Assembly: GCA_019322375.1 (NCBI GenBank)
Contig: JAHWIP010000003.1
Location: 6,792 to 70,791 of the forward strand
DNA: 64,000 bases
DNA from: Candidatus Woesearchaeota archaeon
Lineage (GTDB): Archaea; Nanobdellota; Nanobdellia; Woesearchaeales; SM23-78
Direction of reading: 5' to 3'
The notes below the pieces were generated by a model. It did not search any database and had not been told where the DNA came from. It was given only the letters and a program-made list of their open reading frames with translations. The translations under genes were made by a program, and so were the position numbers. Below, piece after piece: positions 1-46,639 of this stretch; within the stretch, counting starts at the first letter, position 1, and the number at the start of each line of letters is the position of its first letter.

Positions 1-25
1 GGATAGAGCTAAACAGGATAAGAAA

Positions 26-3891: not shown

Positions 3892-3901
3892 GAACTTTCA
3901 A

Positions 3902-8074: not shown

Positions 8075-8127
8075 ATCAGAATAAATTAAATATATAGAAA
8101 GAAATAATATATAACGAGGTTGGTACT

Positions 8128-32630: not shown

Positions 32631-32699
32631 CATAAGAGGGTTTTAAGGGTTTAAAAAGCTTATCTTTTTTCGCCTCTATAGTAACATTTAAATACTAAT

Positions 32700-32754: not shown

Positions 32755-33042
32755 ATGGATAAAAAAGCCCAGGGTCTGAGTATGAATGTTATTATAATAG
32801 CAGCAATAGCTCTTTTAGTGCTTATCATTCTTGCTGTTCTTATCCTGAGAGCAGGTAAAGGAGTGACTGAAGGTACAGGGTGCAGAGGTGTTGGAGGAAT
32901 TTGTTATTCTAGCTGCACAGACTTGATTGAGGACAGAGGCGGAATGTGGGTTAAGAATCTTCCTAACAGCGGAAAGAATGGTGGCTGTTCAATAGACCAG
33001 GTTTGCTGTGTTGAACTATTAGAAACACCTGAGGATTACTAA
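32755..33042 (+). CDS. Small Cys-rich type IV pilin-like protein (major pilin candidate 1)
   Basis: 95 aa; MDKKAQGLSMNVIIIAAIALLVLIILAVLIL class III signal-like; C-terminal 6-Cys module ending QVCCVEL. Confidence 0.55.
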   Translation: MDKKAQGLSMNVIIIAAIALLVLIILAVLILRAGKGVTEGTGCRGVGGICYSSCTDLIEDRGGMWVKNLPNSGKNGGCSIDQVCCVELLETPEDY

Positions 33043-33044
33043 AA

Positions 33045-33335
33045 ATGAAGTTCTTGAATAATAAGAAAGGAGTCCAGCTAACCCTTTCTACAGTGGTTAT
33101 TGCAGTGCTTGTAATCATTGTGCTCATAGTGTTGATAGTGATTTTTACCCAGGGAACAGGCTTGTTCAACATAGGAATAACCAGCTGCGCTGATAGGGGA
33201 GGTAATTGTAATTACGAATCAGCAGATCAATGCGTTGATACTGGCGGCAGTGTTTACAGGTTTGGCAAGTGCACCGACGGGGTTTGCTGTATTCCTAAGG
33301 ACAAGCTTTCAGGGCAAGATGATAATCAAGACTAA
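33045..33335 (+). CDS. Small Cys-rich type IV pilin-like protein (major pilin candidate 2, tandem paralog)
   Basis: 96 aa; MKFLNNKKGVQLTLSTVVIAVLVIIVLIVL; C-terminal Cys module ending GVCCIPKD. Confidence 0.55.
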   Translation: MKFLNNKKGVQLTLSTVVIAVLVIIVLIVLIVIFTQGTGLFNIGITSCADRGGNCNYESADQCVDTGGSVYRFGKCTDGVCCIPKDKLSGQDDNQD

Positions 33336-35157
33336 TAAGAAGAGGGCTGAGCTCACTATAACCCAAGTAGTACTCATGGTTCTGGGTGTAGTTGTTCTTA
33401 TTGTGCTGCTTTTTGTTTTGAAAATAATACCCACAGGAATTAGAAGTCTTACGAGCTGCTCTGACTGGGGGCAGTGCAGGCCAGGAAATGTTTGCGCACC
33501 AAATGAATACATAAAATTTGAAGCAAAGGATGACTGTCCTGCAAACCATGTGTGCTGCGTGCCTACAACCACAAGGCCAGGACCTCTTCAGGATTTTAAT
33601 GAAAAAGAGCTTGAATACCTGAGAAATGCTATTATCATAAAGCTTAACAATGACCCTACGCCTATAAGCGATGTAGCAAGCCTTAACTTAAAAGTTGATA
33701 CTAATTATACATTTCGTATAAGTATTAATGATAAGCTCACCAAGGATAAAAAAACAAGTGAAAAGCTTGGCCCTTGCGCTGTTTATGTGGTTGACACAAG
33801 AGAAGCAGGCAAGAAATATTTATTAACAAATAAAGGCTGGGACTTGATTCTTTCTGACAAAGAGATTGATTTGAGCGGCATAGAGCTGGCTGAGTGCACT
33901 GAAGAAAGCATTAGGTTAAAAAAATATTCTCCTTCACTAAATGATGTTTACAAGGACTTGGTGCTGTATGTTATTCTTTTGGATAAGGAAGTTGTTGATG
34001 CACTTGAAGTATTAGAAACACACGACCCTGGCTTTGTTAAACTAACTGCTCCTGGGTTTGGCAGTGGAATTAATCTCCCTGATAGGGGGATGGCAGCTTT
34101 TTATAATCTCACAACAATGTACAGCAATGTTGACCACTGGCTTGCTTACAGAGCCATAAGACTTAATGTTGAGCCAGTAGTCCAGATTAGTGGTATGAGC
34201 GGAATATGGGTTGACAAGGACCCAATAACCATATCCTGCCCTGATGTTACCTGCATCAGGTTTGGCTTAAAACTAGTGAAACTAAAAGACAATGATTATT
34301 TACAGTTGGTAGAAGAGTGCAAGAAGCCAGAAGGCTTTAAGTACACTCTTGATTATGTTGCAGGAACAACAACAAAAACAACAGGCATACCATTGAACAT
34401 TAATATTGGAGGTTTCAGGATTCCTCCTCAAAGACAAAAACTCCAGTACATTGTAAGCCAAAAACCAATAACTGTTGTTAATAATAAAGCAGATGTTTTG
34501 ATTGACAGGGCTACCATGCTAAAAACCTTTTACTCAGGAGACCACGAGTTATTAATCGAGGACACTACTTATCTTTGCGTAGAAGCCACCAAGGATGACG
34601 GCTCAAAGGTTCATGGGCTCTCAGAGCAGCCTATTAAAGTGGATGTTTTTCCGCCCATGGTTGACCCTGACAAGGATGTGCAGTTATTTTATCCAGACCC
34701 AGTGATCTCATCAGACATATCAACCCCTTATTATTACAGGAAGTACCCTAAGATTGTTGTTTCTGGATGCTATGATTATGGCCAGAGCGGATGCACTAAT
34801 TATGATTACTATATTCATTCAGGAGAATTTGTTAATCTAAGGTCTCTGACAGCAGAGTGGGAGATAGGAATTGCTTCTTTGATACTAACAGAGGGCTTGA
34901 ATGCCCTGCTCACTTATTTTGCAGAAAAAGATGCTGTCAACACTATATGCCCGTTTATAACCAGCCATTCTTACACAAGAAACACCCGCAATGAGATAAG
35001 AATCCCAAGGCAAGGGCAGGGCATAATATGCATCAGGGTTAGTGACAAAGTAGGCAACAAAGACATTATCTGGAAGGTGCTCTGGACACCTGAAGAGATG
35101 TTCAAGAAAATTATTGCAGAAGGAGTGGCAGAGGCAGAAGAAGCAGTGACTGGATAG
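33319..35157 (+). CDS. Large pilin-like secreted protein (N-terminal module paralogous to small pilins)
   Basis: Start at MIIKTNKKRAELTITQVVLMVLGVVVLIVLL; same Cys module (..NHVCCVP) then about 500-aa extracellular region. Confidence 0.5.
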   Translation: MIIKTNKKRAELTITQVVLMVLGVVVLIVLLFVLKIIPTGIRSLTSCSDWGQCRPGNVCAPNEYIKFEAKDDCPANHVCCVPTTTRPGPLQDFNEKELEYLRNAIIIKLNNDPTPISDVASLNLKVDTNYTFRISINDKLTKDKKTSEKLGPCAVYVVDTREAGKKYLLTNKGWDLILSDKEIDLSGIELAECTEESIRLKKYSPSLNDVYKDLVLYVILLDKEVVDALEVLETHDPGFVKLTAPGFGSGINLPDRGMAAFYNLTTMYSNVDHWLAYRAIRLNVEPVVQISGMSGIWVDKDPITISCPDVTCIRFGLKLVKLKDNDYLQLVEECKKPEGFKYTLDYVAGTTTKTTGIPLNINIGGFRIPPQRQKLQYIVSQKPITVVNNKADVLIDRATMLKTFYSGDHELLIEDTTYLCVEATKDDGSKVHGLSEQPIKVDVFPPMVDPDKDVQLFYPDPVISSDISTPYYYRKYPKIVVSGCYDYGQSGCTNYDYYIHSGEFVNLRSLTAEWEIGIASLILTEGLNALLTYFAEKDAVNTICPFITSHSYTRNTRNEIRIPRQGQGIICIRVSDKVGNKDIIWKVLWTPEEMFKKIIAEGVAEAEEAVTG

Positions 35158-35321
35158 CAAGTTAACTTAACATCTCCCTTCTTAATAAAACCGAAAGTTT
35201 ATTATAATTCTGTTATGATAGATTAGGATATGAAAAAAGGAGATTTGTCAACACTGGCAACTGTTATAATTATATTATTAACTCTTGTGTTTATAATCTT
35301 TATTTTCGGAAGAATCTATGG

Positions 35322-36299
35322 GTGGTGGGGTTGAAAAGGATGAGCAGGATTAATAAAAAAGCAGGATTAAGCACATTACAAACAATTATCATTATCCTGC
35401 TCATATTTGTTGTTCTATTAATCTTTTACCAGGACTTAAGAGCAACTCTGTTAAAAAAATCTAACAGAGAGATATGCAGGGCTACTGCTCTTGCCCAGTC
35501 TGTTGCTGTGTGGGCGCCTGAAGGAGAGAATTTGGTTAGTCTTGAATGCAAGACTTACAAGGTTGTGTTTTTTGAAGACCATGTTGAGATTAATGATGAA
35601 ATAATTGAGGTGTATGACCCCAGGAAAAAAGATGTTGTTAAAAAGTTTAATGGCTTAACAGAGGACATTGTTAACTGGGTGATTGCAGAGGAGCTCAGAT
35701 GGTGCTGGTGGCAGTTTCTTGAAGGAAAAAAAAGCTTGTTAAACATGAAGAACTTTTTTGGCTCAGCAGAAAGAACCTGTTTTTTATGCACTGAAATAAC
35801 TTTTGATGAATCAGTTAAGACTGATGAATTCAAAAACTTCTTTAAGTACACCAAGGAAAAAACAATGCCTAATTCTGAAATGACTTATTACCAGTACTAT
35901 GCTGAGGAGCCCAGGAAGTGCATCTGGAGGTATGAAGAGATTATTGATGCAGATAATTGCTGGGAAGCCTATGCACAGGGCATCTCGCCTAATATAATAA
36001 CCAGCACTGTACAGCATTTTAAAGAGGCATTTAGCCATTGCTCAGGCATAATACCTGCTCTTTCAACTTACTGGTCTTCTGTAACGCATTATAGTGTTGT
36101 TAAAAACATAACCTTTGAGAAAGATAAAAAGTATGCTGTGACTTTTGTAAGGGAAGGAGCAACCTCAAGGCATCTTGAGCTAGAAAAATTAGTAAAAGGA
36201 GAGACTGATTGTTTTTTTGAAACTTATTTTTCATATGTAATCCCTTCTGATGAACTAGGAAAGCACTGCGGCCCTGTGAGAAGAGGCTCTATGAAATAA
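35322..36299 (+). CDS. Pilin-like secreted protein
   Basis: MSRINKKAGLSTLQTIIIILLIFVVLLIF (KKAG|LSTLQ class III motif); 325 aa, Cys/Trp-rich. Confidence 0.5.
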   Translation: MVGLKRMSRINKKAGLSTLQTIIIILLIFVVLLIFYQDLRATLLKKSNREICRATALAQSVAVWAPEGENLVSLECKTYKVVFFEDHVEINDEIIEVYDPRKKDVVKKFNGLTEDIVNWVIAEELRWCWWQFLEGKKSLLNMKNFFGSAERTCFLCTEITFDESVKTDEFKNFFKYTKEKTMPNSEMTYYQYYAEEPRKCIWRYEEIIDADNCWEAYAQGISPNIITSTVQHFKEAFSHCSGIIPALSTYWSSVTHYSVVKNITFEKDKKYAVTFVREGATSRHLELEKLVKGETDCFFETYFSYVIPSDELGKHCGPVRRGSMK

Positions 36300-36300
36300 A

Positions 36301-37197
36301 ATGAACAAGAAAGCCATTGTGTTTGACAAACTCATGACAGCTGTTCTGATAATCATTGTGCTGGCTGTTTTTATTTTTTTCCTGGTAAAGATAAAAATCC
36401 ATGCCTTAAAAATTGTTGAGGATTCTGAGTGCAAAGCAAGCATTATCAGCCATGCAACTCTTTTAAGGGTGACTGGAGAAGACACAACACCAGACATTCA
36501 CTGCCCTACCAAATATTATACTCTTCCAAAAGAAAGCAATGAAGAAATAAAGCATTATATTGCTGATTCATTAAAGACCTGCTGGGGAACCTGGGGCAAA
36601 GGAGAGCTTCAGTTATTTAACCAGCAAGGCTATTACTGCCATGTGTGCTCTGTGATTGATTTTGATGATAAAACAAAAAAAATACAAGGCCTGAACAATT
36701 ACCTGATTAATACGCCAACAGATAAAGATACCCCTCTCACATACATGGACTACCTCACAGGTTATGCATCTGAAAAAGCAGACCCTGCATTAATACAAGA
36801 GGTTCAGGAAAAAGGTTTTTCAGACACCATACACACTTCAAAGCCTTATGCAGTCATGTTTGTTTATGCCAAAGGAAAAACAGGTGTTAAAGCATTTCTT
36901 GATGGCATGGATGCTCTTGGCCTGGGAACAACAGGAGGAGGAATCACTACAGGGCTTGCACTGGGCTCAGCAGCAGGCATAGGGCTGGCAGCAGCAGGAG
37001 TGGCAAGTGGTGGAGCAGCAATTGTTATAGCAGGAGCAGTCACAGCTGCTGGCGGAGTGATAGGCTATATAACAGCAGATGATACTCACTGGATAGCCCT
37101 TACATTGTTCACAGAATACAATGCTGAAACCCTGAAAAGCATTGGGTGCGAGATAGCCCCTGCAAAGCAGGACAGAAAAACTGATGAAACTGGTTAA
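36301..37197 (+). CDS. Pilin-like protein with C-terminal Gly/Ala-rich glycine-zipper segment
   Basis: MNKKAIVFDKLMTAVLIIIVLAVFIFFLV; C-terminus GLGTTGGGITTGLALGSAAGIGLAAAGVASGGAAIVIAGAVTAAGGVIGYI. Confidence 0.45.
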   Translation: MNKKAIVFDKLMTAVLIIIVLAVFIFFLVKIKIHALKIVEDSECKASIISHATLLRVTGEDTTPDIHCPTKYYTLPKESNEEIKHYIADSLKTCWGTWGKGELQLFNQQGYYCHVCSVIDFDDKTKKIQGLNNYLINTPTDKDTPLTYMDYLTGYASEKADPALIQEVQEKGFSDTIHTSKPYAVMFVYAKGKTGVKAFLDGMDALGLGTTGGGITTGLALGSAAGIGLAAAGVASGGAAIVIAGAVTAAGGVIGYITADDTHWIALTLFTEYNAETLKSIGCEIAPAKQDRKTDETG

Positions 37198-37280
37198 AAA
37201 ACTTAATTTGGTGATTTAGTTAAAGCGAAAGCATTAAAAAACACAAAAGCATAAAAAATCTTGAAACAAGAGGTTTTAAC

Positions 37281-37442
37281 ATGAGTTATGGCATGAACCG
37301 TATGAACAAGAAAGCCCAGGAAACAATGAGTCCTGAAGGCGGCACACTAAGAATAATATGGTTTGTGATTGTCTTATTAGTACTTATTATTATTGTTTAT
37401 TTTGTTGCAACAAATTTTAAACTAATCAAACTGCCATTTTGA
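37281..37442 (+). CDS. Small membrane peptide (53 aa) within pilin cluster
   Basis: MSYGMNRMNKKAQETMSPEGGTLRIIWFVIVLLVLIIIVYFVATNFKLIKLPF; below ORF-track cutoff. Confidence 0.3.
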   Translation: MSYGMNRMNKKAQETMSPEGGTLRIIWFVIVLLVLIIIVYFVATNFKLIKLPF

Positions 37443-37451
37443 GGTTAAGAA

Positions 37452-38285
37452 ATGAAGCTGATAAATGCTATTGGTGCCATTGTTTTAGGATTGTTTGTAT
37501 TAATTATACTAATCCTGATATTTGTTCCAAACACATTCAAAATTGTTAATAATATCTTTCTTATTATTGGCCAACAATTAGGCTTTAACCCAGCAGTTCC
37601 TGGAGGTGAAGACTATGGCTTTGGAGGGCTTTATGGAAGCACACCATCAACTATTCCAACTGATGCTGAGCCAGAGCGTATTAAAAAAGTCAAAACAAAG
37701 CCAGGCATTCCTGTTGATGAAAAATATTTTGGAGAGCTCTACTCTTATTCCAGGGAAGGAGCACTTGTTGACACCATTGTACTGCACCACACAGGGGATA
37801 ATAAAGCTTCGCAAACATTCAATACTCTGAAAAAAAGAGAGCTTTCAGTGCATTATGTTGTTGACAAGGACGGCACAATATATTACTTGATAGATGAGAG
37901 CACAAAAGGCGCTCATTGCGGTTGCTGCCCGCCAAGCAACCCGACTTGTTGCAAAGCAGGAGAAAACTGTCCTGTTTGCCTGAATGAAGAATTAAGAGAA
38001 ATGAATGCCAAATCAATAGGCATTGAAATTGTTAACACAGGATATGCAGATGATTACTACACTAATGAGCAATATGTTTCAATAGATAAACTGATAAATG
38101 ATATTGCAAGCAGATGGACTGCTATTGCTGTTGATAATGAGCATGTGCTTGGGCATTACCAGATTACACTGGGTAAGTGGGATCCTTCACCTGTTTTTAA
38201 ATGGGCAAGAATACAAGGATTGTCAGGCCACTTAATGCTTGCAGACATAGGAAAAAAAGCACCCTCTGAATACGGCTATACATGA
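37452..38285 (+). CDS. N-acetylmuramoyl-L-alanine amidase (Amidase_2/PGRP domain) with pilin-like N-terminal anchor and Cys-rich insert
   Basis: TIVLHHTGDNKAS..LSVHYVVDKDGTIYYLIDESTKGAHCG..NAKSIGIEIVNTG..VLGHYQI..KWDPSP = Amidase_2 signature; N-term MKLINAIGAIVLGLFVLIILILIFV; insert CGCCPPSNPTCCKAGENCPVC. Confidence 0.8.
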   Translation: MKLINAIGAIVLGLFVLIILILIFVPNTFKIVNNIFLIIGQQLGFNPAVPGGEDYGFGGLYGSTPSTIPTDAEPERIKKVKTKPGIPVDEKYFGELYSYSREGALVDTIVLHHTGDNKASQTFNTLKKRELSVHYVVDKDGTIYYLIDESTKGAHCGCCPPSNPTCCKAGENCPVCLNEELREMNAKSIGIEIVNTGYADDYYTNEQYVSIDKLINDIASRWTAIAVDNEHVLGHYQITLGKWDPSPVFKWARIQGLSGHLMLADIGKKAPSEYGYT

Positions 38286-38352
38286 GTTTGTGACAGAGCA
38301 TTAAAATACACTGAGACACATTAAAATAATAGCAAAGTTTATATACAAAGAT

Positions 38353-39081
38353 TTGCAAGAATTATATGAGATGAAACCCTTGTTTTCAAAGAATAAAAAA
38401 AAGAAAGGCTTGTCAACCCTTGGAACCATTATAGGACTAATACTTTTACTAGCAGTCCTGGCAATCTTTCTTCCGGTTATTCTTCGCGCAGGCAAAACAA
38501 CTGATGAAGTCCCCAAAGACATAATGGACCCTGTCAAGGCATGCCATGGAAAAGAGAGTGGTGAGGAATGTTATCTTGGCGGAATAGCTGGTTTTTGCAG
38601 GGATTTCAGGTGTGTTATAGAGACTTCAGCAAAAAACATGAAAGAATCAATAACTATTTTCAAGACAACTTTCAAGGACAGCATTGAGAATTGCCAGAAA
38701 GATGTAGCCCAGTGCCCTGAGGCAACAAAGGCTCTGGACTTAATGATTGGTTATTTCACAGATGCAGGGCTTGTTGTTCATAGATTAGCCTCAGACAGAG
38801 CAGAGTTCAGGCTATACCAGGAAAAAAACTTTTTAGGTATTGGAGGGCATAAAGCCTCTTTTGTTTTTTACGGCGATACTTGTGTAATAGAGAAGAAAGG
38901 GGATAATGATGTTCCTACATCGGGCAAAAACTTTAAGCTTGGGATCAAAAAAGAAAGCAAAGGTTTTGTAGTATATGACCTTGAAAAAACTGCTGCTGAA
39001 CTAGGCACTTTTATATCTTTCAGGCATCAAACCCAGAATGATGCAACCACCCCGGTCTGTGTTTATTACACTACAGATTAG
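38353..39081 (+). CDS. Pilin-like secreted protein
   Basis: MKPLFSKNKKKKGLSTLGTIIGLILLLAVLAIFL (KKG|LSTL); 6 Cys. Confidence 0.5.
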   Translation: MQELYEMKPLFSKNKKKKGLSTLGTIIGLILLLAVLAIFLPVILRAGKTTDEVPKDIMDPVKACHGKESGEECYLGGIAGFCRDFRCVIETSAKNMKESITIFKTTFKDSIENCQKDVAQCPEATKALDLMIGYFTDAGLVVHRLASDRAEFRLYQEKNFLGIGGHKASFVFYGDTCVIEKKGDNDVPTSGKNFKLGIKKESKGFVVYDLEKTAAELGTFISFRHQTQNDATTPVCVYYTTD

Positions 39082-39154
39082 CAATGCTAAAATAAATTTT
39101 ATTATCATAAAATATTTAATTATTAAAAAAAATTGATTGCAAAGGTGAACTATT

Positions 39155-39808: not shown

Positions 39809-39872
39809 TAACTCTGTTAATTCTTCCCCACCGAAACAAATTTATACTTATTAAGCAAGTTTCTTATGTATT

Positions 39873-41027
39873 ATGGCTTGGATGAATAAAAAAGGCGGTG
39901 AAAGACAGATTGGACTTAGCGAACTTACGCTTTATGTGTTTGTCATTCTGCTTATAGTTGTCTTATTTATTGTTAGCTATAGGTTTATCGGAGCTTTTCT
40001 CAGAGGAGGAGTTGATAAAGACACTGAGTCTAATTTTGTGTCACTGGCAGAGAACCTTGAGTTAATGATTGAGAAAGACGCAGGGTTTGAATACCAGACC
40101 ATGATTTTTTATATGAAAGAAAAGCATTTTGTGTTTGGCTTTACATCCAAGCAGGCTCTTTCCTCTTCTCCAGCAAAGCATTTTATGCCTGAGAAATGCA
40201 ATGAGCACTCATGCCTTTGCCTGTATAAAGAACCTGATGATGTAGCAGATGACAAGCCTGTCAAGTGCATATCTTTTGGGCACAAGGTTATTTTTCATGG
40301 CTATGACTTAAAAAAAGTGTCTGCTGCTCAGCTGGTTTATCCTGACCTAGGAGCAGAGCTGGGTGCGCGTGAGCAAGGAGAATCTTATTATTTATCTGAT
40401 TATCCTGAAACTATTTCTTTTTATATAGAAGGCTTGTTTATTGGCCCTTCACTAGACAATCCTCATGACCTTTACCTGGAAAAAATAGTTGCTAATAACA
40501 GGGTGCATGTTTTTGTGACTCCTGGCCTTAAGCAGGAAATGATAGAGACAAGGATTGAACTGTTATCTCCCTGCCCTTTTGATTCTGATGAAGAATGCAT
40601 GGGCAAGAGAAGAAACTCTGTTCTGGGCAGTAATGATTATTGTTTTTATGATGAGAGCCAGGCTAAGTGCTTGTTAAAAAAAGATGTGGATGCCTGTTCT
40701 TTCTCAGACAGAATTACACAGCCCTGTCTTTGCGGCTCTACATTTATAGACCCAGACACCAGGACAGAAGAAACCTATTGTTATCAAAAATCTGATAAAA
40801 GGATTTTTGTCCTTCCATTTGACTGCGATTCAGAGGAATTAAGAGAAAAAAAATGCCTTGCTTACTGCAGGGCAATCACTGATACAGAGGACTGCGACAC
40901 AAGAGAACAGGATTACTGTGATAAAGACCCTTGCGAGTTTGCTTCTAAAGAAAAGCCGTGCGAAGTGCGCCCATTAGGCAAAAAAACTTATTGTGCTTCT
41001 TACTCAAGGGATTACAGCATGGATTAA
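39873..41027 (+). CDS. Pilin-like Cys-rich secreted protein
   Basis: MAWMNKKGGERQIGLSELTLYVFVILLIVVLFIV; about 25 Cys. Confidence 0.5.
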   Translation: MAWMNKKGGERQIGLSELTLYVFVILLIVVLFIVSYRFIGAFLRGGVDKDTESNFVSLAENLELMIEKDAGFEYQTMIFYMKEKHFVFGFTSKQALSSSPAKHFMPEKCNEHSCLCLYKEPDDVADDKPVKCISFGHKVIFHGYDLKKVSAAQLVYPDLGAELGAREQGESYYLSDYPETISFYIEGLFIGPSLDNPHDLYLEKIVANNRVHVFVTPGLKQEMIETRIELLSPCPFDSDEECMGKRRNSVLGSNDYCFYDESQAKCLLKKDVDACSFSDRITQPCLCGSTFIDPDTRTEETYCYQKSDKRIFVLPFDCDSEELREKKCLAYCRAITDTEDCDTREQDYCDKDPCEFASKEKPCEVRPLGKKTYCASYSRDYSMD

Positions 41028-41113
41028 TAATAGTTGCTTGGATTAATAATAATTATTAGTAATTGTTCTAAAAACCTAAATCTTTTTAAACTCGTTTATC
41101 AACAATTTAAGTT

Positions 41114-41596
41114 ATGAGTTTTTATGATTTTAATAACAAGAAAGCCAGGAGCATGATTGCAACTTCTTTTTATGTATTATTTGGCTTGATGCTGGGAGCC
41201 TTTTTTGTGATAGCTGTTCTTGGAAGAGTTAAGGATGCTGTTGGTGATTCTGCTTATCATAAAAAGTTTTATTCCAGGGACCTGGCCTTGCTTGTTGATG
41301 CCTTGCATGCCAGCAATGGAAAGTTTGTTGTTGATTATGATGTTAATCTTCCAGACAACATGCTCCTGGACTTTGGTCTTGAGCCTGGAGCAGTCATCTT
41401 AACAGACCGCTCTGACACACTCATGGATAACAGGCATAAAACTGCTTTTTTGTTTGGGCATAATGATTATGTAAAAATAATTCCTGTCACAATTGACAAG
41501 AACATGCTTAAATTGTTAGTGGTGGCTGATAACAACACCATTACATTTGAAGAGAAAGGGATGGATGATTTAAGTACAAATGATAAAGAGGAGTGA
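41114..41596 (+). CDS. Pilin-like protein
   Basis: MSFYDFNNKKARSMIATSFYVLFGLMLGAFFVIAVL. Confidence 0.45.
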   Translation: MSFYDFNNKKARSMIATSFYVLFGLMLGAFFVIAVLGRVKDAVGDSAYHKKFYSRDLALLVDALHASNGKFVVDYDVNLPDNMLLDFGLEPGAVILTDRSDTLMDNRHKTAFLFGHNDYVKIIPVTIDKNMLKLLVVADNNTITFEEKGMDDLSTNDKEE

Positions 41597-41629
41597 TTTA
41601 AGTATAAATGATTTAAGCAAAGAATAAGG

Positions 41630-42169
41630 ATGAGAATAATAAAAAAGAGGCTGAGCCTGAATAACAAAAAGGGGTTGGGAACTGAGGAGTGGCTTGAACT
41701 TCTGCCTTACATAGTGTTAACAGTGGTTGTAATGGTGGCTATTTTTGCCCTGATAAACCTTTTTGTTAATATTTCTGTTGATGTTAAGCCTGTTCAAAGG
41801 GAAGTTCTTTTCTACAGGCTGATGTATGCTCCTAACTCAATTATGTATATGGATAATCTTACTGGCAGGGTTCACCCTGGTGTTATTAGCTGGGATAATT
41901 TTACCAACCAGACCCTTGACAAATCTATTGCTTATGATTATGAAAGGCATATATCTGCAAAATTGATATTATATAACCTGGAAAAAGAGCCAATCAAAAC
42001 AGCTTATCTTAATGGGCTGTGGTTTAACCGCTTAGAGCCTTTGGCCAGGAGCAGGATTAAGGGTGCAGGCAGTGCAGAGCTCTACACCAAGAAAATCCCT
42101 GTTGTTTACAGGAGAAATGATGTGAACAGGGCAGGCTATCTTAAAGTTGAGATTATCATTCCAAACTAA
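41630..42169 (+). CDS. Pilin-like protein
   Basis: ..NNKKGLGTEEWLELLPYIVLTVVVMVAIFALI (KKG|LGTEE, Glu at +5 as in bacterial T4 pilins). Confidence 0.5.
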   Translation: MRIIKKRLSLNNKKGLGTEEWLELLPYIVLTVVVMVAIFALINLFVNISVDVKPVQREVLFYRLMYAPNSIMYMDNLTGRVHPGVISWDNFTNQTLDKSIAYDYERHISAKLILYNLEKEPIKTAYLNGLWFNRLEPLARSRIKGAGSAELYTKKIPVVYRRNDVNRAGYLKVEIIIPN

Positions 42170-42184
42170 CAGCGAGTGATTTGA

Positions 42185-42853
42185 ATGAGCAGTTTGATTA
42201 ATTCAAGAAAAGGCATGAAAACCATTGTGACAATATTATCAGTTGTCTTGTTAGTATTCATATTCATAATATTTATTTTTCTTTTCAGGCTTGGCGCCAG
42301 GAACAAGGCAGAAAGCATAGAATCAGATTTTTCCTCTGTAAGAACAGAGTTTTTGCTTAAAACCTTTTTAAGAACACCAGCTGTTATTAGTGATGATTAC
42401 CCTGTTGAAGACTTGTTCCCTGGCATAGGAGAAGGCATTACCAATGCAGACCTGGTATCATGGACATGTAGTAAGGATAAAGACAGGAATTACAAGACCT
42501 TGAAAAACTCAATAAACACTTTTTTTGATGAGGCATATGAAGATGACTGGGAAGCATGGATAATCTATTCTAATCCTAAAGTAAAAAAGAAGGGCTTTGG
42601 GCACAAGAGTTATCTTGAAGGGATTGAGAAAAGCATAAACCGCTTGCTAACAGCAGGACAGCTGGCTTTGCTAGCAGCCAAATCATCAGACCCAGCCAGC
42701 AGGGGATTAATCTTCAAGCTTTTTATAACTCCTTATCGTGAAGCAGGCTTTGGCTCCCAGGTGGTTCCTTGCCCAGACGGAGAACTAGCCCAGATAATGC
42801 TTTACTCCCACACAGCATTTATTGAAATAAAACACCTGAAAGGCTTAACATAA
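42185..42853 (+). CDS. Pilin-like protein
   Basis: MSSLINSRKGMKTIVTILSVVLLVFIFIIFIFLF. Confidence 0.45.
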   Translation: MSSLINSRKGMKTIVTILSVVLLVFIFIIFIFLFRLGARNKAESIESDFSSVRTEFLLKTFLRTPAVISDDYPVEDLFPGIGEGITNADLVSWTCSKDKDRNYKTLKNSINTFFDEAYEDDWEAWIIYSNPKVKKKGFGHKSYLEGIEKSINRLLTAGQLALLAAKSSDPASRGLIFKLFITPYREAGFGSQVVPCPDGELAQIMLYSHTAFIEIKHLKGLT

Positions 42854-42865
42854 GATAAAATAAAA

Positions 42866-45800
42866 ATGGATAAAGTAAAACTGAGATTAAAAAACAGAAA
42901 AGCACAGGTTTACCCGCTTTTTGTAGTGGTCTTTACAATAGTGGCCTTGACAACAGCCCTTATTGGCTTGAGCAATGCAAAAGAGGTTACTGATTTATCT
43001 GGCAGGGAAATGCTTATCGGCACCAAGCAATCAGCTGTTTTTGCATCTCTTCAAGACGCAGATGCTGTTAGTTTATTCATAGAGCAGGCAGCAGAATTTG
43101 CAGGCCAGCAAGCCCTGGATAAAATAAGAAAATCATGCTTTTTTGGAGTTGATGAGGAACAAGAAGTTGATGAGTGGGAGTCTCCATGCGGCAAGTTTGT
43201 TTATCCTCTTTGGAGCACTAATGAAAATCTTTGCCTTCCTGATTGTGAAACAGCTTTTGTCAATGCCTTTAACAAGGATTTTTTAAGCCGAACAAACAAG
43301 TATTATGAGTTCACAAACATAGAGCTGCCTATTTCTTATAACATGAGCCTGGAAATACATGACAATCATTTTTTTGTTCATGGAACCTCTGACACAGAAC
43401 TAAGGATTAATGTGGTTGATATTCAGAGCAGGATTAAGTCTCCCCTGGCAATAGCCCAGACTTATGAGGAAGGCAGGCTTATCTGGCCTGTTGATTACTC
43501 TGACCACACAATCACCTCTTGCTTTGGTGAAAGAGATGTTGTTGGGGGGAGCAAATACCATCCTGCTGTTGATATCCGGGCTCCAAAAGGAACACCAGTG
43601 CTGGCAGCTGCTTTAGGAAAAGTGATTCTTACTGACCCTTGCTGGGGAAGAATTGTTATTAATCATGGCTCTGGCTTAAGCACAGAGTATCTTCACTTGG
43701 AAAAAATTGATGTTAAGGTTAATGATGATGTGGTGCAGGGACAAAGAATAGGAACTTCTGGCAGCAATGGCTGTGACACAAGAGAGTTTGTTCCGCACCT
43801 GCATTTTGGGGTTATATATCAAGGTGTTCAGTCACCCATGCATTATAAAGGGCAGGAAATAGTTTTGAGCAACAACCATATCCAGCCCATGTGCTTGATT
43901 GAAAAAGGGTATGCTGCTAAGCCAGAAAGCAACTGCAACCAGCTTGTGAACACAGACTTAGACAAGATTTGTGAATTGTATAATCTGCCAGAAGAATTTT
44001 TTGAATCATCAGAATCATCAAAGCCATCAGAGCCATCAGAACCAGACCAAGACACTTCTTCTGAAGAAAGTGCTGATGCAGAGAATGCTGGTGCAGAAAG
44101 TGTTAATGCAGAAAGCACTGAGCTGGATTATTCTCTGGCACAGGCTCCTGGCAGCTATGCTTTTAAACCATCTTTTACCTTGAGGGTTAACAAGAAAATA
44201 GAAAACCCTATTGAGCCAGTAACAGAGTGGTTTGAGAACACCTGGAACGAGTGCGAGGATGACCCTTGGAAATGTTTAAGAGAAAAAATGAGTGAGTTTA
44301 ATGAGCAGGACTATGATTACAAGCTCATGTTTGCTGACAGGTGCGAGGAAGGCTATCACTTGTTCTATGACATACTGGAGTTTTTTGAGGACTGCTTTTC
44401 AAACCAGAAGTATGGGTGCTCATGCGAGTTTAATTTATCAGATGCTTTTTCAATAACTGACTTGCGAATAGTTTTTGACACACAAGCAAACACAGCCTCT
44501 CTTTTTTCCAAGCAGGGAGATAAGCCTGGTGATGAATATGAATTAATTGATTCATACCAGTTCTATTATGGAAGCATAACCAAGCCAGCCCCTGCTTCTC
44601 CTTATAGGTATTATGTGTATCAGCTTGATTATGATGATTATGGGGAGCTGGAAAATGCAGAGCTTATGCAAATGAAGTCATTGCTTGATGTATTTGATGT
44701 TGTGCCTTTTTTTGATTACAAAGAACTAAGACTGGCAAAGCCAGGAGAGGCTGAGCAAGGATATTTTGTGAACACAGAAACAATTCAGTGCAAGTACAAG
44801 AAGAACAAGTTCAGGCTGTGTGCAAAGCCAGCACAGGAAAGAGAAGACTTGTTCCCTATAAGGTTTGCTTTTCACTTAAAAGACAAGCCTCCTGAGCCTG
44901 TTAAAAAAGGAGATGTGGAAATTATAGAGGTGGAGGAGAGTTCTGAGTCAGATGTTGACAAGGTAATGCAGGCAGCAGGCTTTCTAGGAACCATATTCCC
45001 TCCTCTAGGCTACTTGTTCACAGCAATTAATATTCTCAGTGTGTTGGAAGACTTTAAACCAAGAAAGTTCGAGGTAATAGTTGATGTTCCTCTTGACAAG
45101 GATGGCAAACCCCTGGATGTTGCTGGCTATGAAGTTTATTGCAGTGATTACCTGACAAACATCCTGCCAGTGGATGTTTTGGATAAATATAATCCAAGTC
45201 ATTTTGTTGTGATGGCTAATGATGAGATGAATAAAAAAGTAAGCCAGCTAGACCAGTATGTTAAGAAGAACCCTTACACAGACTTTCTGAATCTTGAGAG
45301 CTGTGATGTGCCTGTGAGCAAGTTCACAGGAGAAACCATTCTTGTGCCTGGAATCAAAGGGGTTGTTAAGGACGGTAAAATGGTTTTCAACCTTCATAAA
45401 TGCGGGGACTTGGCAATAATTATAGATAAACTAATAAGAAAAGACTACTGTGTATCACTAATACCTGTTGACAAGAATGGCAACAAGATAATGGAGCATG
45501 CTGTGAGCAACTGCGCGCAAACCAATTCACTGCTTGACCTGGTTATTAGTGAGATGATAGAGGAACAGCTAGGAGAATTTATTCCTGCAAGCCTTATACC
45601 TGATAATTTAAAGCCTTATATCAAGCTGCCTGACACAAGCGATATTGTTAATGCAGTAACAGGGGAAGGCAGTTTTGACATGATAGACATTGTTAATCTT
45701 GACAAGCTGGACGCAGACATAAAAAATTATCTTGAGGAATTCGTGGTTGGAACTATTAATGAAGACATAATAGGCACTTCTGTTGTTAATTCTATTGATG

Positions 45801-46639
45801 ACTTAAAGCTCTGGGAAAAACAAACAGTGCTTAACACCCTGTCAAACCAGATAAAAAATGATGATGCAAAAACCTTGTTTGATGCCTTTGTAACAGGAGA
45901 AGGTGTTGCTGAGTCTGCCAAGCGCATGGCTTATGAAAAAGGAGTAGGATATATAGACCAGACAAAAACACCTGAGATACTTAAGGAGATAGCCAAAGGA
46001 GAAGACCCTAAAAGCCTTGCATACCAGGAACTGGTAAAAGCAGCTGAGAAAGAGCTCAGCACTGACGAGAAAAAACAGGCTCTGCTGGAGATAGCCAGGA
46101 GCAGCAGTGGAAGAGAGGTAAAAGATAAGATAATAGAAAAAGCCCTTGAAAAAGGATGCGGCGAGTCATATGGAATAAGTGCAGAGCAGGCAATCAACTG
46201 CCTTGACAATGAAGAGGTAGAAAATATTTATCACAAAGTTCTGACAGACTACAGCACACCAGACAAGGTAAAACAGTTTTTGCTTGACAAGGCAATTGAC
46301 AAGTTTGATGAAAAAACACCAGACGTGCTAAAAGAGATTGTTCTGAAAAGAGACTTTAAAGGAGCAGCAAAGGACATGCTTGAGAAAGAGCTTGACAAGC
46401 TTCCAGACGCTGTTAAGAAAGAGTTTATTACTGATATACTTGAAGGCAGGCTTCCAGATGTTGAGTACTTGCAGCAGGAACTAGTGAAAATGATACCAGC
46501 AGTAAACAATGAATATGTGAATGCCCTGCTAAAAGACGGCAATGTTAAAAACCTGATAGAATCAACCCTTAAATCAGAGATAGAAAAACAACTAGGCTCA
46601 TTCTTCTCAGATGAATGCGTGGCAATTAATAAGGATTGA
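42866..46639 (+). CDS. Giant pilin-like secreted M23 (LytM-type) metallopeptidase
   Basis: 1257 aa; N-term MDKVKLRLKNRKAQVYPLFVVVFTIVALTTALIGL; M23 motifs YHPAVDIRAPKGTPV (HxxxD) and VPHLHFGV (HxH) at about residues 230-320; acidic Ser-rich linker; long K/E-rich helical C-terminus. Confidence 0.8.
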   Translation: MDKVKLRLKNRKAQVYPLFVVVFTIVALTTALIGLSNAKEVTDLSGREMLIGTKQSAVFASLQDADAVSLFIEQAAEFAGQQALDKIRKSCFFGVDEEQEVDEWESPCGKFVYPLWSTNENLCLPDCETAFVNAFNKDFLSRTNKYYEFTNIELPISYNMSLEIHDNHFFVHGTSDTELRINVVDIQSRIKSPLAIAQTYEEGRLIWPVDYSDHTITSCFGERDVVGGSKYHPAVDIRAPKGTPVLAAALGKVILTDPCWGRIVINHGSGLSTEYLHLEKIDVKVNDDVVQGQRIGTSGSNGCDTREFVPHLHFGVIYQGVQSPMHYKGQEIVLSNNHIQPMCLIEKGYAAKPESNCNQLVNTDLDKICELYNLPEEFFESSESSKPSEPSEPDQDTSSEESADAENAGAESVNAESTELDYSLAQAPGSYAFKPSFTLRVNKKIENPIEPVTEWFENTWNECEDDPWKCLREKMSEFNEQDYDYKLMFADRCEEGYHLFYDILEFFEDCFSNQKYGCSCEFNLSDAFSITDLRIVFDTQANTASLFSKQGDKPGDEYELIDSYQFYYGSITKPAPASPYRYYVYQLDYDDYGELENAELMQMKSLLDVFDVVPFFDYKELRLAKPGEAEQGYFVNTETIQCKYKKNKFRLCAKPAQEREDLFPIRFAFHLKDKPPEPVKKGDVEIIEVEESSESDVDKVMQAAGFLGTIFPPLGYLFTAINILSVLEDFKPRKFEVIVDVPLDKDGKPLDVAGYEVYCSDYLTNILPVDVLDKYNPSHFVVMANDEMNKKVSQLDQYVKKNPYTDFLNLESCDVPVSKFTGETILVPGIKGVVKDGKMVFNLHKCGDLAIIIDKLIRKDYCVSLIPVDKNGNKIMEHAVSNCAQTNSLLDLVISEMIEEQLGEFIPASLIPDNLKPYIKLPDTSDIVNAVTGEGSFDMIDIVNLDKLDADIKNYLEEFVVGTINEDIIGTSVVNSIDDLKLWEKQTVLNTLSNQIKNDDAKTLFDAFVTGEGVAESAKRMAYEKGVGYIDQTKTPEILKEIAKGEDPKSLAYQELVKAAEKELSTDEKKQALLEIARSSSGREVKDKIIEKALEKGCGESYGISAEQAINCLDNEEVENIYHKVLTDYSTPDKVKQFLLDKAIDKFDEKTPDVLKEIVLKRDFKGAAKDMLEKELDKLPDAVKKEFITDILEGRLPDVEYLQQELVKMIPAVNNEYVNALLKDGNVKNLIESTLKSEIEKQLGSFFSDECVAINKD

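What the first reader, a model, noticed from the sequence alone, without database searches (positions are those of the whole stretch)
32755..46639. A 14-gene pilin-like cluster carries two peptidoglycan hydrolases in an archaeon
Fourteen consecutive same-strand genes all encode proteins that start with a short basic N-terminus, a Gly, then an uninterrupted hydrophobic helix. Typical examples are KKAG-LSTLQTIII, KKG-LSTLGTII and RKG-LSLLGMLGG. This is the class III / type IV prepilin pattern. Two members carry unmistakable murein-hydrolase domains: an Amidase_2/PGRP amidase (37452-38285) and an M23/LytM endopeptidase (42866-46639). Archaea do not make peptidoglycan, and pseudomurein is not a known substrate of these families. 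A surface filament or apparatus bearing bacterial cell-wall lytic enzymes suggests an undescribed device in a DPANN-like archaeon for attacking, attaching to, or feeding on bacterial cells.
Basis: partly seen in the sequence, partly recalled or inferred. Interest (0 to 1): 0.88.

Follow-up and report, generated by a model that had tools for sequence, protein, structure and literature searches.

The report
Surface-protein operon carrying swappable murein hydrolases
A tiny symbiotic-type archaeon (Woesearchaeota) carries a conserved 15-gene operon of membrane-anchored, pilin-like surface proteins that always includes enzymes able to cut bacterial cell walls, which suggests it contacts or feeds on bacteria, although similar enzymes have already been reported in this group.

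Summary
Window 32755-46639 holds 15 tightly packed same-strand genes (the 14 reported plus a 34-aa mini-ORF). All encode single-pass membrane proteins.

- **N-terminal motif:** 14 of 15 have a conserved [KR][KR]-[G/A] motif before the hydrophobic helix (7 Gly, 7 Ala). The amidase lacks it.
- **Hydrolases:** Amidase_2 (37452-38285) and Peptidase_M23 (in 42866-46639) score far above the Pfam thresholds, and the residues I checked in their conserved motifs match solved enzymes.
- **Origin:** The contig is archaeal; an archaeal RNase P RNA lies 180 nt upstream. The cluster sits in the same chromosomal position in about 13 related Woesearchaeota/Nanoarchaeia genomes. It is therefore neither an assembly chimera nor a provirus.
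- **New finding:** Two fixed slots hold interchangeable murein-hydrolase domains across relatives (M23, SLT, Amidase_2, a probable lysozyme-like domain), while the surrounding genes stay constant.
- **Pilin status is unproven:** No curated pilin model matches. One confident structure model resembles Cache/PAS-like sensor domains rather than pilins. No prepilin peptidase is visible. A pilus platform-like gene does lie at the window start.

Large murein hydrolases in Woesearchaeota, and the idea that these archaea have bacterial hosts, are already published. The conserved operon and the domain swapping appear to be new. I rate it a new variant of a known kind, of moderate interest.

The parts
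32687..32694 (+). TATA-box-like element TTTAAATA, 68 nt before the first gene; an SD-like GAGGTGA sits just before the ATG. Candidate archaeal promoter of the operon (inferred).
32755..33042 (+). Gene 1: 95 aa, MDKKA|QGLSMNVIII..., with 6 Cys in the ectodomain. Candidate small major subunit.
   Evidence: Motif plus helix is 82% conserved versus 40% for the rest.
33045..33335 (+). Gene 2: 96 aa, ..NNKKG|VQLTLSTVV.., with 6 Cys.
   Evidence: Helix 67% conserved versus 44% for the rest.
33322..35157 (+). Gene 3: 611 aa, ..NKKRA|ELTITQVV.., Cys-rich start of the ectodomain resembling genes 1 and 2. No known domain.
35230..35334 (+). Small ORFs occupy the same position in relatives.
   Evidence: counterparts
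35340..36299 (+). Gene 4: 319 aa, ..NKKA|GLSTLQTIII.., distant paralogue of gene 5.
36301..37197 (+). Gene 5: 298 aa, MNKKA|IVFDKLM.., with a Gly/Ala-rich hydrophobic C-terminal stretch.
37281..37442 (+). Gene 6: 53-aa mini-protein, ..NKKA|QETMS.. followed by one helix.
37452..38285 (+). Gene 7 ('slot 7'): 277-aa membrane-anchored Amidase_2 (N-acetylmuramoyl-L-alanine amidase type). Domain residues 106-247 (nt 37767-38192). Carries a 17-aa Cys-rich insertion. No basic-Gly/Ala motif.
38371..39081 (+). Gene 8: 236 aa, ..KKKG|LSTLGTII.. A TATA-like box lies at 38338.
39155..39808 (+). Gene 9: 217 aa, TTG start supported by orthologues, ..SRKG|LSLLGML.., 18 Cys.
39873..41027 (+). Gene 10: 384 aa, ..NKKG|GERQIG.., 20 Cys.
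41114..41596 (+). Gene 11: 160 aa, ..NNKKA|RSMIATSF.., conserved core gene.
41630..42169 (+). Gene 12: 179 aa, ..NNKKG|LGTEEWLE.., the most conserved gene of the cluster. The model shows a long N-terminal helix plus a six-stranded sheet.
42185..42853 (+). Gene 13: 222 aa, ..NSRKG|MKTIVTIL.., conserved core gene.
42866..46639 (+). Gene 14: 1257-aa modular protein, ..KNRKA|QVYPLFVVV.. It consists of an N-terminal module (about residues 40-205), a Peptidase_M23 domain (residues 231-321, nt 43556-43828), and a lineage-restricted C-terminal region of about 830 aa.
2..1891 (+). Outside the finding: a multi-pass membrane protein that is probably a pilus platform (PilC/TadC-like). It runs off the window start. 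It is a possible assembly partner for the cluster.
   Evidence: its most distant homologue carries Pfam T2SSF; a 66%-identical homologue lies directly after a T2SSE ATPase.

Best explanation
The locus is a vertically inherited, operon-like set of 15 genes in a Woesearchaeota (DPANN) lineage. It builds a cell-surface apparatus made only of single-pass, N-in/C-out proteins and presents murein hydrolases to the outside.

**Proposed parts**
- Two fixed positions carry the enzymes. Gene 7 is a membrane-anchored hydrolase, here an AmpD-type amidase. Gene 14 is a 1257-aa modular protein.
- Gene 14 consists of an N-terminal carrier module, an inserted hydrolase domain (here M23) and a lineage-specific 830-aa C-terminal region.
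- The other genes supply small Cys-rich subunits (genes 1 and 2), larger ectodomain proteins (genes 3-5 and 8-10) and a conserved trio (genes 11-13) next to gene 14.

**Proposed mechanism (inferred)**
- The [KR][KR]-[G/A] N-termini are class III-like signals, processed by a prepilin-type peptidase.
- The subunits are assembled by the pilus ATPase and platform whose platform-like gene lies at the window start.
- Assembly yields a short filament or surface complex. Its large subunit and the anchored amidase locally digest the peptidoglycan of a bacterial partner or prey, to attach, reach its membrane, or release nutrients.

**Shown versus inferred**
- Shown: gene order, topology features, conserved N-terminal motif, intact hydrolase motifs, conserved synteny, domain swapping.
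- Inferred: signal cleavage, filament formation, the bacterial target.
For: - **Enzymes look active.** Amidase_2 and M23 score far above the Pfam cut-offs. H232, D236, H277, H311 and H313 of the M23 domain are invariant in 10 homologues. They align with the HxxxD, H and HxH motifs of C. jejuni Pgp3, PDB 6jmx. The amidase aligns with P. aeruginosa AmpDh2, PDB 4bj4, keeping the HHT / HY / SIGIEIVN / GH..K.DP motifs.
- **Conserved synteny.** The cluster has the same gene order in about 13 distinct relatives. Where the flanks are covered, it lies upstream of RPA-CARDB-YdjM-SpoIIM-RadA. In the window and in L027 an NTP-transferase gene lies upstream of it.
- **Hydrolase domains swap within a constant scaffold.**
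  - Gene 14 carries M23 alone, M23+SLT, M23+Amidase_2 or Amidase_2 alone.
  - More distant members of the family carry M23 or SLT, and two carry no detectable hydrolase domain.
  - Slot 7 holds Amidase_2, SLT, or a domain with weak but consistent GH73/SLT-like hits in 5 of 5 orthologues and a conserved ES motif.
- **N-terminal motif.** It is found in 14/15 cluster proteins versus 6/17 background proteins and is conserved across orthologues.
- **Pilin-like conservation pattern.** The helix is much better conserved than the ectodomain in genes 1, 2, 13 and 14, as in pilins.
- **Carrier module.** The N-terminal module of gene 14 exists as a stand-alone 160-aa last gene in a distant Woesearchaeota cluster that has no hydrolase.
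- **Assembly machinery.** A platform-like gene lies at the window start, and its close homologue sits directly after a T2SSE ATPase.
- **Precedents in the literature.** Archaeal pilin loci are often separate from the ATPase/TadC locus (PMC4858521). Bacterial modular pilins carry grafted functional modules (PMC8179133).
Against: - No curated pilin or class III signal model matches any protein. This holds at E <= 0.01 on the full-length proteins and at E <= 10 on the N-termini of the 10 proteins tested.
- Strict FlaFind-type matching succeeds for only 3 proteins.
- In three proteins the motif is 9-12 residues away from the helix.
- Genes 3, 4, 5 and 10 have poorly conserved helices, like ordinary membrane anchors.
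- No prepilin peptidase or ATPase is visible in the window.
- The ATPase link rests on a homologue's neighbourhood, not on this genome.
- No bacterial partner is known for this lineage.
- Enzyme activity and substrate are untested.
- The gene 14 model was too poor to use (pLDDT 49).
Confidence: 0.5

Rival explanations
1. The locus encodes a membrane-anchored ecto-enzyme complex, not a filament. The N-termini are uncleaved signal anchors, with KK as the positive-inside signal. The 15 proteins form a surface or envelope complex held together in the membrane. Its hydrolases degrade murein fragments or neighbouring bacterial walls for scavenging amino sugars and peptides.
For: - All proteins are simple single-pass proteins.
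- No pilin model matches.
- The gene 12 ectodomain resembles ligand-binding Cache/PAS-like domains.
- The helices of genes 3, 4, 5 and 10 are poorly conserved.
- The amidase is a plain anchor.
- There is no ATPase or peptidase in the cluster.
Against: - A positive-inside patch does not explain the conserved Gly/Ala after the basic pair in 14 of 15 families.
- It also does not explain the near-invariant helices of genes 1, 2, 13 and 14.
- Genes 1 and 2 are small, and a pilus platform gene is present in the same window.
Confidence: 0.3
2. The hydrolases act on a non-bacterial wall. The target would be either the pseudomurein of a methanogen host or a murein-like layer of the archaeon itself, with the enzymes making space so that its own surface structure can be assembled.
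For: - Woesearchaeota have been proposed as partners of methanogens (title and highlights of PMC7844129, listed).
- Bacterial envelope-spanning machines carry their own space-making hydrolases. This point rests on my own knowledge (FlgJ, VirB1, PrgK), not on a test here.
Against: - From established knowledge of these families, M23, Amidase_2, SLT and GH73 all target bonds of bacterial murein. Pseudomurein lacks MurNAc and D-amino-acid cross-links.
- A published survey found archaeal hydrolases largely outside the pseudomurein-producing classes (PMC12352652).
- I saw no murein-synthesis genes in the 64-kb window.
Confidence: 0.08
3. The locus is a conjugation- or secretion-type machine of bacterial origin. 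It would resemble a monoderm type IV secretion system, whose operons combine many single-pass proteins with a multi-domain hydrolase such as PrgK (LytM+SLT+CHAP).
For: - In relatives, gene 14 has an N-terminal anchor followed by M23 and SLT. This resembles PrgK, a resemblance I recall from memory.
- The cluster consists of many small membrane proteins.
Against: - No protein of the cluster has an ATPase (VirB4/VirD4) domain or is multi-pass like VirB6.
- The non-hydrolase families examined (gene 12 and the gene 14 C-terminal region) have very few relatives in very large databases. The gene 12 family has 42 proteins, and every one that carries a source name is Woesearchaeota or Nanoarchaeia. The gene 14 C-terminal region has 23.
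- The cluster is chromosomal and syntenic, not on a mobile element.
Confidence: 0.03
4. The locus is an artefact or foreign DNA. It would be a bacterial/archaeal assembly chimera, or an integrated virus carrying tail-lysin genes.
For: - The hydrolase domains are of bacterial type.
- PHROGs hits for the M23 domain include endolysins and tape-measure proteins.
Against: - An archaeal RNase P RNA lies 180 nt upstream and an RPA gene directly downstream.
- The same junctions recur in independent assemblies from different samples.
- G+C content is even across the region.
- No viral family matches any of the other nine proteins tested. No viral structure matches gene 12.
Confidence: 0.01

Closest known systems
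Large extracellular murein-hydrolase proteins of Woesearchaeota/Pacearchaeota (fam00969 in Castelle et al. 2021, PMC8204110; also Vigneron et al. 2022, PMC9723730; Strock et al. 2025, PMC12352652)
   Same: - Same organism group.
- Very large secreted or anchored proteins with bacterial-type murein-cleaving domains.
- Orthologues of gene 14 carry an SLT lytic transglycosylase domain.
- The same inference is drawn: contact with, or attack on, bacteria.
   Different: - In the passages I read, those papers describe single proteins found by domain search. They give no gene context, and none of the text searches found the word pilin or pili in them.
- Here the enzyme is the last gene of a conserved 15-gene operon of pilin-like proteins.
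- A second hydrolase slot exists, and the catalytic domains are exchanged between lineages.
- The window's own gene 14 has M23 and no SLT.
- I could not test identity with fam00969.
Archaeal type IV pilins and other class III signal-peptide proteins (for example Methanococcus Epd pilins, Haloferax PilA, and the surface-exposed binding proteins of Sulfolobus processed by PibD)
   Same: - A short basic leader ending in Gly/Ala, followed by a hydrophobic helix.
- Several have Gln at +1, as in EppA-type substrates.
- Small subunits with highly conserved helices (genes 1 and 2).
- Pilin gene sets located away from the ATPase/platform locus (PMC4858521).
   Different: - No match to Pfam pilin models.
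- Most proteins fail the strict FlaFind pattern.
- Cleavage and assembly are unproven.
- None of the pilus papers I read reports an archaeal pilin carrying a murein hydrolase.
Bacterial modular type IV pilins and the minor-pilin/PilY1 tip complex (Raynaud et al. 2021, PMC8179133)
   Same: - The idea of a carrier module with a grafted functional module.
- An operon logic of several small subunits followed by one very large protein, like genes 11-13 followed by gene 14.
- The carrier module of gene 14 occurs alone in a distant cluster.
   Different: - Different domain of life.
- No N-methylation-type motif.
- The known grafted modules are mostly adhesive (vWA, lectin) rather than wall-lytic.
- Homology is not detectable.
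Specialised hydrolases of bacterial envelope-spanning machines (PrgK of pCF10, VirB1, FlgJ) and phage tail lysins or tape-measure proteins with M23/SLT domains
   Same: - Multi-domain, often membrane-anchored hydrolases that combine M23 with SLT or an amidase.
- They are encoded inside the operon of the machine they serve.
- They cut locally through murein.
   Different: - In those systems the wall that is cut is the cell's own wall, or the phage's host wall.
- The machines have ATPases or virion proteins, which are absent here.
- The comparison with PrgK, VirB1 and FlgJ is recalled from memory, not tested.
Attachment organelle of Nanobdellota (Johnson et al. 2024, PMC11420986)
   Same: - DPANN cell-surface device with a filament that penetrates the host envelope.
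- Its protein components are unknown, so a conserved surface-protein operon is a candidate type of locus.
   Different: - That organelle was seen on archaeal hosts that lack murein.
- There is no genetic link to this cluster.
- The comparison is purely conceptual.

Membership tests
Archaeal type IV pilin / class III signal peptide proteins | Short charged leader with K/R at -2 and G/A at -1, followed directly by about 20 hydrophobic residues | tested here: inconclusive
   - The [KR][KR]-[G/A] motif is present in 14/15 proteins and conserved in orthologues.
- The strict FlaFind expression matches only 3 of the 14 proteins tested.
- Three proteins have 9-12 polar residues between the motif and the helix.
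- The amidase lacks the motif.
Archaeal type IV pilin / class III signal peptide proteins | Match to curated N-terminal pilin models (Pfam Class_IIIsignal, archaeal Pilin_N, N_methyl) | tested here: not met
   No such hit at E <= 0.01 on the full-length proteins. None at E <= 10 on the first 60 residues of 10 proteins. The nearest is a noise-level TadF hit at E 0.09.
Archaeal type IV pilin / class III signal peptide proteins | Prepilin peptidase (Peptidase_A24: PibD/FlaK/EppA) in the genome, and cleavage of the leader | not testable with these tools
   None of the ORFs of 110 aa or more in the 64-kb window has this domain. The rest of the genome could not be read.
Archaeal type IV pilin / class III signal peptide proteins | Assembly ATPase (T2SSE/PilB/ArlI type) and platform protein (T2SSF/TadC/ArlJ type) | tested here: inconclusive
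   - ORF 2-1891 belongs to a 620-aa Woesearchaeota family whose most distant hit has Pfam T2SSF.
- A 66%-identical homologue directly follows a T2SSE ATPase.
- The ATPase of this genome would lie beyond the window edge.
Archaeal type IV pilin / class III signal peptide proteins | Pilin fold, and an N-terminal helix more conserved than the globular part | tested here: inconclusive
   - The gene 12 model has a helix at residues 19-66 plus a six-stranded sheet.
- The helix is more conserved than the rest in genes 1, 2, 13 and 14, but not in genes 3, 4, 5 and 10.
Peptidase M23 (LytM/lysostaphin type murein endopeptidase) | Domain match above the curated threshold | tested here: met
   76.5 bits against a cut-off of 28.7, residues 231-321. 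PDB hits to Pgp3, DipM, ShyA and lysostaphin.
Peptidase M23 (LytM/lysostaphin type murein endopeptidase) | Zinc and catalytic motifs HxxxD, H and HxH | tested here: met
   H232, D236, H277, H311 and H313 are invariant in 10 homologues. They align with YHSGTD / YYHL / PHLHFG of PDB 6jmx. The roles of these residues come from established knowledge of the family.
Peptidase M23 (LytM/lysostaphin type murein endopeptidase) | Cleavage of murein peptide cross-links | not testable with these tools
   Needs an enzyme assay on sacculi.
Amidase_2 (AmpD / PGRP / T7 lysozyme type N-acetylmuramoyl-L-alanine amidase) | Domain match above the curated threshold | tested here: met
   89 bits against a cut-off of 26, residues 106-247. 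NCBIfam AmpD hit at E 1e-14, below its equivalog cut-off.
Amidase_2 (AmpD / PGRP / T7 lysozyme type N-acetylmuramoyl-L-alanine amidase) | Conserved metal-binding and catalytic residues (His, His, Asp/Cys; Tyr, Lys) | tested here: met
   - Alignment to P. aeruginosa AmpDh2 (PDB 4bj4) keeps LHHT/LHYT, HY, SIGIEIVN and GH...K.DP.
- Assigning these residues as ligands rests on knowledge of AmpD.
- A 17-aa Cys-rich insertion is extra.
Monoderm type IV secretion / conjugation machinery | VirB4-type and VirD4-type ATPases and a multi-pass VirB6-like channel protein in the operon | tested here: not met
   No ATPase domain in any cluster protein. Each protein has a single N-terminal helix; gene 5 alone has an extra Gly/Ala-rich hydrophobic stretch.
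Integrated virus or phage-like element | Viral hallmark proteins (capsid, terminase, portal, tail) or variable genomic location | tested here: not met
   PHROGs matches only the M23 domain. The cluster occupies the same chromosomal position in about 13 genomes.
Woesearchaeota/Pacearchaeota large murein-like lytic transglycosylase family (fam00969, PMC8204110) | Very large extracellular protein with an SLT domain in these lineages | tested here: inconclusive
   Gene 14 orthologues in L009, L013, L023 and L025 have SLT at E about 1e-23. The window's copy has M23 only. The sequences of fam00969 were not available for comparison.

The most novel reading that the evidence does not exclude
The cluster encodes the so far unidentified protein parts of a DPANN host-attachment and penetration device, specialised for bacterial hosts. 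It would be a type IV pilus-like fibre built from the gene 1 and gene 2 subunits and tipped by a complex of genes 11-14. The exchangeable murein-hydrolase domains of gene 14, together with the anchored slot-7 enzyme, would drill through the host's cell wall. Each lineage's set of domains would be matched to the wall chemistry of its host.
Probability: 0.22. Interest if true: 0.85.

Novelty: new variant of a known kind. Interest (0 to 1): 0.58.

Why it matters
No Woesearchaeota has been grown with a known partner, and it is an open question whether any DPANN archaeon lives on bacteria rather than on other archaea. Earlier work noted isolated large murein hydrolases.

This locus adds three things:
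- The enzymes are built into a conserved, chromosomal, multi-protein surface system.
- Selection keeps a murein-cutting activity in two fixed slots while the domain type changes.
- Sixteen named candidate genes can now be tested for an archaeon-to-bacterium contact device (the 15 of the cluster plus the platform-like gene).

The hydrolase set of each lineage could also serve as a predictor of host wall type. If signal cleavage and a filament are shown, this would be an archaeal counterpart of bacterial modular pilins, but with a lytic module.

Tried and rejected
- **Assembly chimera: rejected.** An archaeal RNase P RNA and an RPA gene flank the cluster. The same junctions appear in independent assemblies.
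- **Provirus: rejected.** PHROGs and BFVD gave nothing beyond the M23 domain.
- **Secretion or conjugation machine: rejected.** There is no ATPase or multi-pass protein in the cluster.
- **Gene 14 structure model (residues 1-1200, 10-sequence alignment).** Mean pLDDT was 49, so it was unusable and was not searched.
- **Profiles of genes 11, 12 and 13 against PDB sequences.** No hits.
- **Low-threshold scans.** The Pfam scan of N-termini gave only noise, and the NCBIfam scan of seven cluster proteins gave only noise apart from the two hydrolase domains.
- **BLAST between the cluster and the other set of small membrane proteins at 2162-9744.** No relationship.
- **Attempts to read the contig upstream of the window to find the ATPase: failed.** Exact-sequence look-ups returned only a short contig or nothing. 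The first 25 nt of the window are uninformative.
- **Sigma-70-type promoter and terminator scan.** Not meaningful for an archaeon.

Full report
**1. What is in the sequence**

Between 32755 and 46639 every sizeable ORF lies on the + strand. Spacing between genes ranges from a 14-nt overlap to 182 nt. I count 15 genes.
- Thirteen are ORFs of 95-1257 aa.
- One is a 53-aa ORF at 37281-37442. Gene callers on an identical public contig also call it.
- One is a 34-aa ORF at 35230-35334 in the only large gap. Small ORFs occupy the same position in relatives.

Each product has a single strong N-terminal hydrophobic segment. Only gene 5 has an extra feature, a Gly/Ala-rich hydrophobic C-terminal stretch. 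The ectodomains are often Cys-rich, with 6 to 26 Cys.

A TATA-like TTTAAATA lies 68 nt before gene 1, followed by an SD-like GAGGTGA. A second TATA-like box precedes gene 8. These are candidate archaeal promoters, by inference only.

**2. The N-terminal pattern**

Fourteen of the 15 proteins carry [KR][KR]-[G/A] shortly before the helix. Seven have Gly and seven have Ala.
- The motif is kept at the same position in the orthologues I aligned from five other genomes.
- It is significantly more frequent than in the 17 other N-terminally anchored proteins of the window: 14/15 versus 6/17, Fisher p = 8e-4.
- Four of the six background positives lie in a second cluster of small membrane proteins near a pilus platform-like gene.

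Exceptions and weaknesses:
- The amidase has no such motif.
- In genes 6, 10 and 12 the motif is 9-12 polar residues away from the helix.
- The strict FlaFind expression matches only 3 proteins.
- No Pfam pilin or class III signal model matches at E <= 0.01 on the full-length proteins or at E <= 10 on the isolated N-termini of the 10 proteins tested.

One pilin-like property does hold for a subset. In genes 1, 2, 13 and 14 the motif-plus-helix segment is much better conserved than the rest of the protein (82/40, 67/44, 56/43 and 63/46 %). In genes 3, 4, 5 and 10 it is less conserved, as in ordinary anchors.

**3. The two enzymes**

*Gene 7.* It matches Amidase_2 at 89 bits against a cut-off of 26. 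It aligns with the periplasmic amidase AmpDh2 of P. aeruginosa (PDB 4bj4, E 3e-11). The motifs LHHT, HY, SIGIEIVN and GH..K.DP are retained. From knowledge of AmpD, these contain the metal ligands and catalytic residues. A 17-residue Cys-rich loop is inserted.

*Gene 14.* It matches Peptidase_M23 at 76.5 bits against a cut-off of 28.7. H232, D236, H277, H311 and H313 are invariant in ten homologues. They align with the HxxxD, H and HxH motifs of C. jejuni Pgp3 (PDB 6jmx, E 8e-18).

With the basic residues inside and one helix, both catalytic domains are predicted to face outward. This topology is inferred.

**4. Origin and conservation**

The window is archaeal.
- An archaeal RNase P RNA lies at 32269-32573, 180 nt from gene 1.
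- NAC, tRNA-intron endonuclease, Hjc, RadA and an RPA-like gene are present, the last directly downstream of the cluster.
- NCBI labels the 71,427-bp contig Candidatus Woesearchaeota.
- G+C content is even across the region.

Gene 14 has nine full-length homologues (39-58% identity) among 5.8 billion proteins. Gene 12, the best conserved gene, has 42 relatives. Every one that carries a source name is Woesearchaeota or Nanoarchaeia.

Contexts fetched from public assemblies, GTDB genomes and JGI metagenomes give about 13 distinct loci. All have the same gene order. Where the flanks are covered, the cluster lies upstream of RPA-CARDB-YdjM-SpoIIM-RadA, and in the window and L027 an NTP-transferase gene lies upstream of it. 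This excludes a chimera and argues against a mobile element. PHROGs matches only the M23 domain.

**5. The main new result: exchangeable hydrolase domains in two fixed slots**

Gene 14 orthologues carry different domain combinations:

| Domains in gene 14 | Loci |
|---|---|
| M23 alone | window, L002, L004, L008, L017, L027 |
| M23 + SLT | L009, L013, L023, L025, and three further proteins |
| M23 + Amidase_2 | L006, L024 |
| Amidase_2 alone | L028 |

The position of gene 7 ('slot 7') also varies:
- Amidase_2 in the window, L009, L013 and L023.
- A weak SLT hit in one contig.
- A 229-243-aa protein in L002, L004, L006, L024 and L025. In all five it gives sub-threshold Glucosaminidase/SLT_4 hits (15.6-28.2 bits against 30.2). 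It has a conserved AFFxHESxFG motif and a weak profile hit to a phage cell-wall hydrolase (E 0.014). This is probably a lysozyme-like glycosidase, but that is not proven.

The C-terminal 828 residues of gene 14 have only 23 relatives among 1.84 billion representatives, all with the same layout. The distant ones still carry M23 or SLT. Two carry no detectable hydrolase.

In a remote Woesearchaeota cluster (L015), the genes have the same NKK[G/A] starts and a 32%-identical gene 12 homologue. The last gene there is only 160 aa. It aligns with residues 43-204 of gene 14 (hhalign probability 73%, E 3e-5).

So gene 14 looks like a carrier module onto which hydrolase domains and a large C-terminal region were grafted. 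Murein cleavage is what selection keeps.

**6. Is it a pilus?**

*For:*
- The motif and the helix conservation described in section 2.
- The two small leading subunits (genes 1 and 2).
- Three small conserved proteins followed by one very large one, which resembles bacterial minor-pilin/tip-protein operons. This is an analogy only.
- The ORF at 2-1891. It belongs to a 620-aa Woesearchaeota family whose most distant relative carries Pfam T2SSF. A 66%-identical homologue lies directly behind a T2SSE ATPase.
- Archaeal pilin gene sets are often separate from the ATPase/TadC locus (PMC4858521).

*Against:*
- No pilin model matches.
- No peptidase is visible in the window.

I therefore treat 'type IV pilin-like' as plausible but unproven, at roughly 35-40%.

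**7. Most likely function**

The locus most likely encodes a surface apparatus of a DPANN archaeon that presents murein hydrolases to bacterial cell walls. The purpose would be attachment, access to the partner's membrane, or feeding.

- Shown: anatomy, intact enzyme motifs, conservation, domain swapping.
- Inferred: outward topology, leader cleavage, assembly by the pilus machinery, a bacterial target.

Rivals:
- An uncleaved membrane-anchored ecto-enzyme complex (0.3).
- Action on pseudomurein or on the archaeon's own wall (0.08).
- A secretion or conjugation machine (0.03).
- An artefact or provirus (0.01).

**8. Comparison with the literature**
- Castelle et al. 2021 reported large murein-like lytic transglycosylase proteins in small-genome Woesearchaeota and Pacearchaeota. 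They suggested that some may be episymbionts of bacteria (PMC8204110).
- Vigneron et al. 2022 proposed 'vampiristic' Woesearchaeota with such enzymes (PMC9723730).
- Strock et al. 2025 found hydrolase homologues in about 5% of archaeal genomes. They were prominent in Nanoarchaeota and included M23. The study also showed killing activity for haloarchaeal enzymes (PMC12352652).
- Text searches of these three papers found no mention of pilins, and the passages returned describe no gene cluster or domain swapping.
- Bacterial modular pilins provide the closest mechanistic concept (PMC8179133).
- The protein parts of the DPANN attachment organelle are unknown (PMC11420986).

**9. Verdict**

The conserved operon with two exchangeable hydrolase slots is a new variant of a known kind. 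Interest is moderate (0.58). It would be higher if cleavage, a filament and a bacterial host were shown.

Noticed in passing
window 48092-50200 (-) and 50267-52498 (-): A full-length bacterial-type sigma-70 (Pfam regions 1.2, 2, 3 and 4) lies next to a 743-aa HATPase_c_3 protein, between the RPA-like and CARDB genes. Most relatives have RPA followed directly by CARDB, so this pair looks like a 4.5-kb insertion. Sigma-70 genes in Woesearchaeota are already reported, with unknown function (PMC8204110).
   Followed up: partly
window 2-1891 (+) and 2162-9744: A multi-pass protein running off the window start is probably a pilus platform protein. A close homologue sits right after a T2SSE ATPase. 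It is followed by nine small or medium proteins with N-terminal helices, some with K-G/K-A motifs, and no Pfam hits. This may be the canonical pilus locus of the genome. It shows no BLAST similarity to the finding's cluster.
   Followed up: partly
window 32269-32573 (-): An archaeal RNase P RNA (Rfam RF00373, 121 bits) lies immediately upstream of the cluster. It is a useful taxonomic anchor.
   Followed up: yes
window 31196-32199 (-): A HEPN and nucleotidyltransferase gene pair (toxin-antitoxin-like) lies just upstream of RNase P. A similar NTP_transf_2 gene sits upstream of the cluster in L027.
   Followed up: no
window 57768-58808 (-), 58923-61412 (-), 54265-57738 (+): A SpoIIM-family membrane protein is kept near the cluster in all relatives whose flanks cover that region. 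Next to it in the window are an 829-aa Peptidase_C25 protein with an N-terminal R-A-helix start, and a 1157-aa protein with no known domain. I did not examine any functional link to the cluster.
   Followed up: no
window 37452-38285, residues about 155-182: The amidase domain carries a 17-residue Cys-rich insertion (CGCCPPSNPTCCKAGENCPVC) that is absent from AmpDh2. Its function is unknown. Many ectodomains of the cluster are similarly Cys-rich.
   Followed up: partly
window 36301-37197, residues about 205-260: Gene 5 ends with a long Gly/Ala-rich hydrophobic stretch (..GGGITTGLALGSAAGIGLAAAGVASGGAAIVIAGAV..). It could be a second membrane-interacting segment.
   Followed up: no
L013 (CAYGYA010000038.1): A GTDB genome record titled 'uncultured Methanosarcinales archaeon' carries the complete Woesearchaeota-type cluster with the same flanks. 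The contig is probably mis-binned or mislabelled.
   Followed up: no
L015 1-5236 (Baikal Woesearchaeota): A distant, hydrolase-free version of the cluster. It has eight consecutive genes with NKK[G/A]-type starts. The series ends in a 160-aa protein that matches only the N-terminal module of gene 14.
   Followed up: partly
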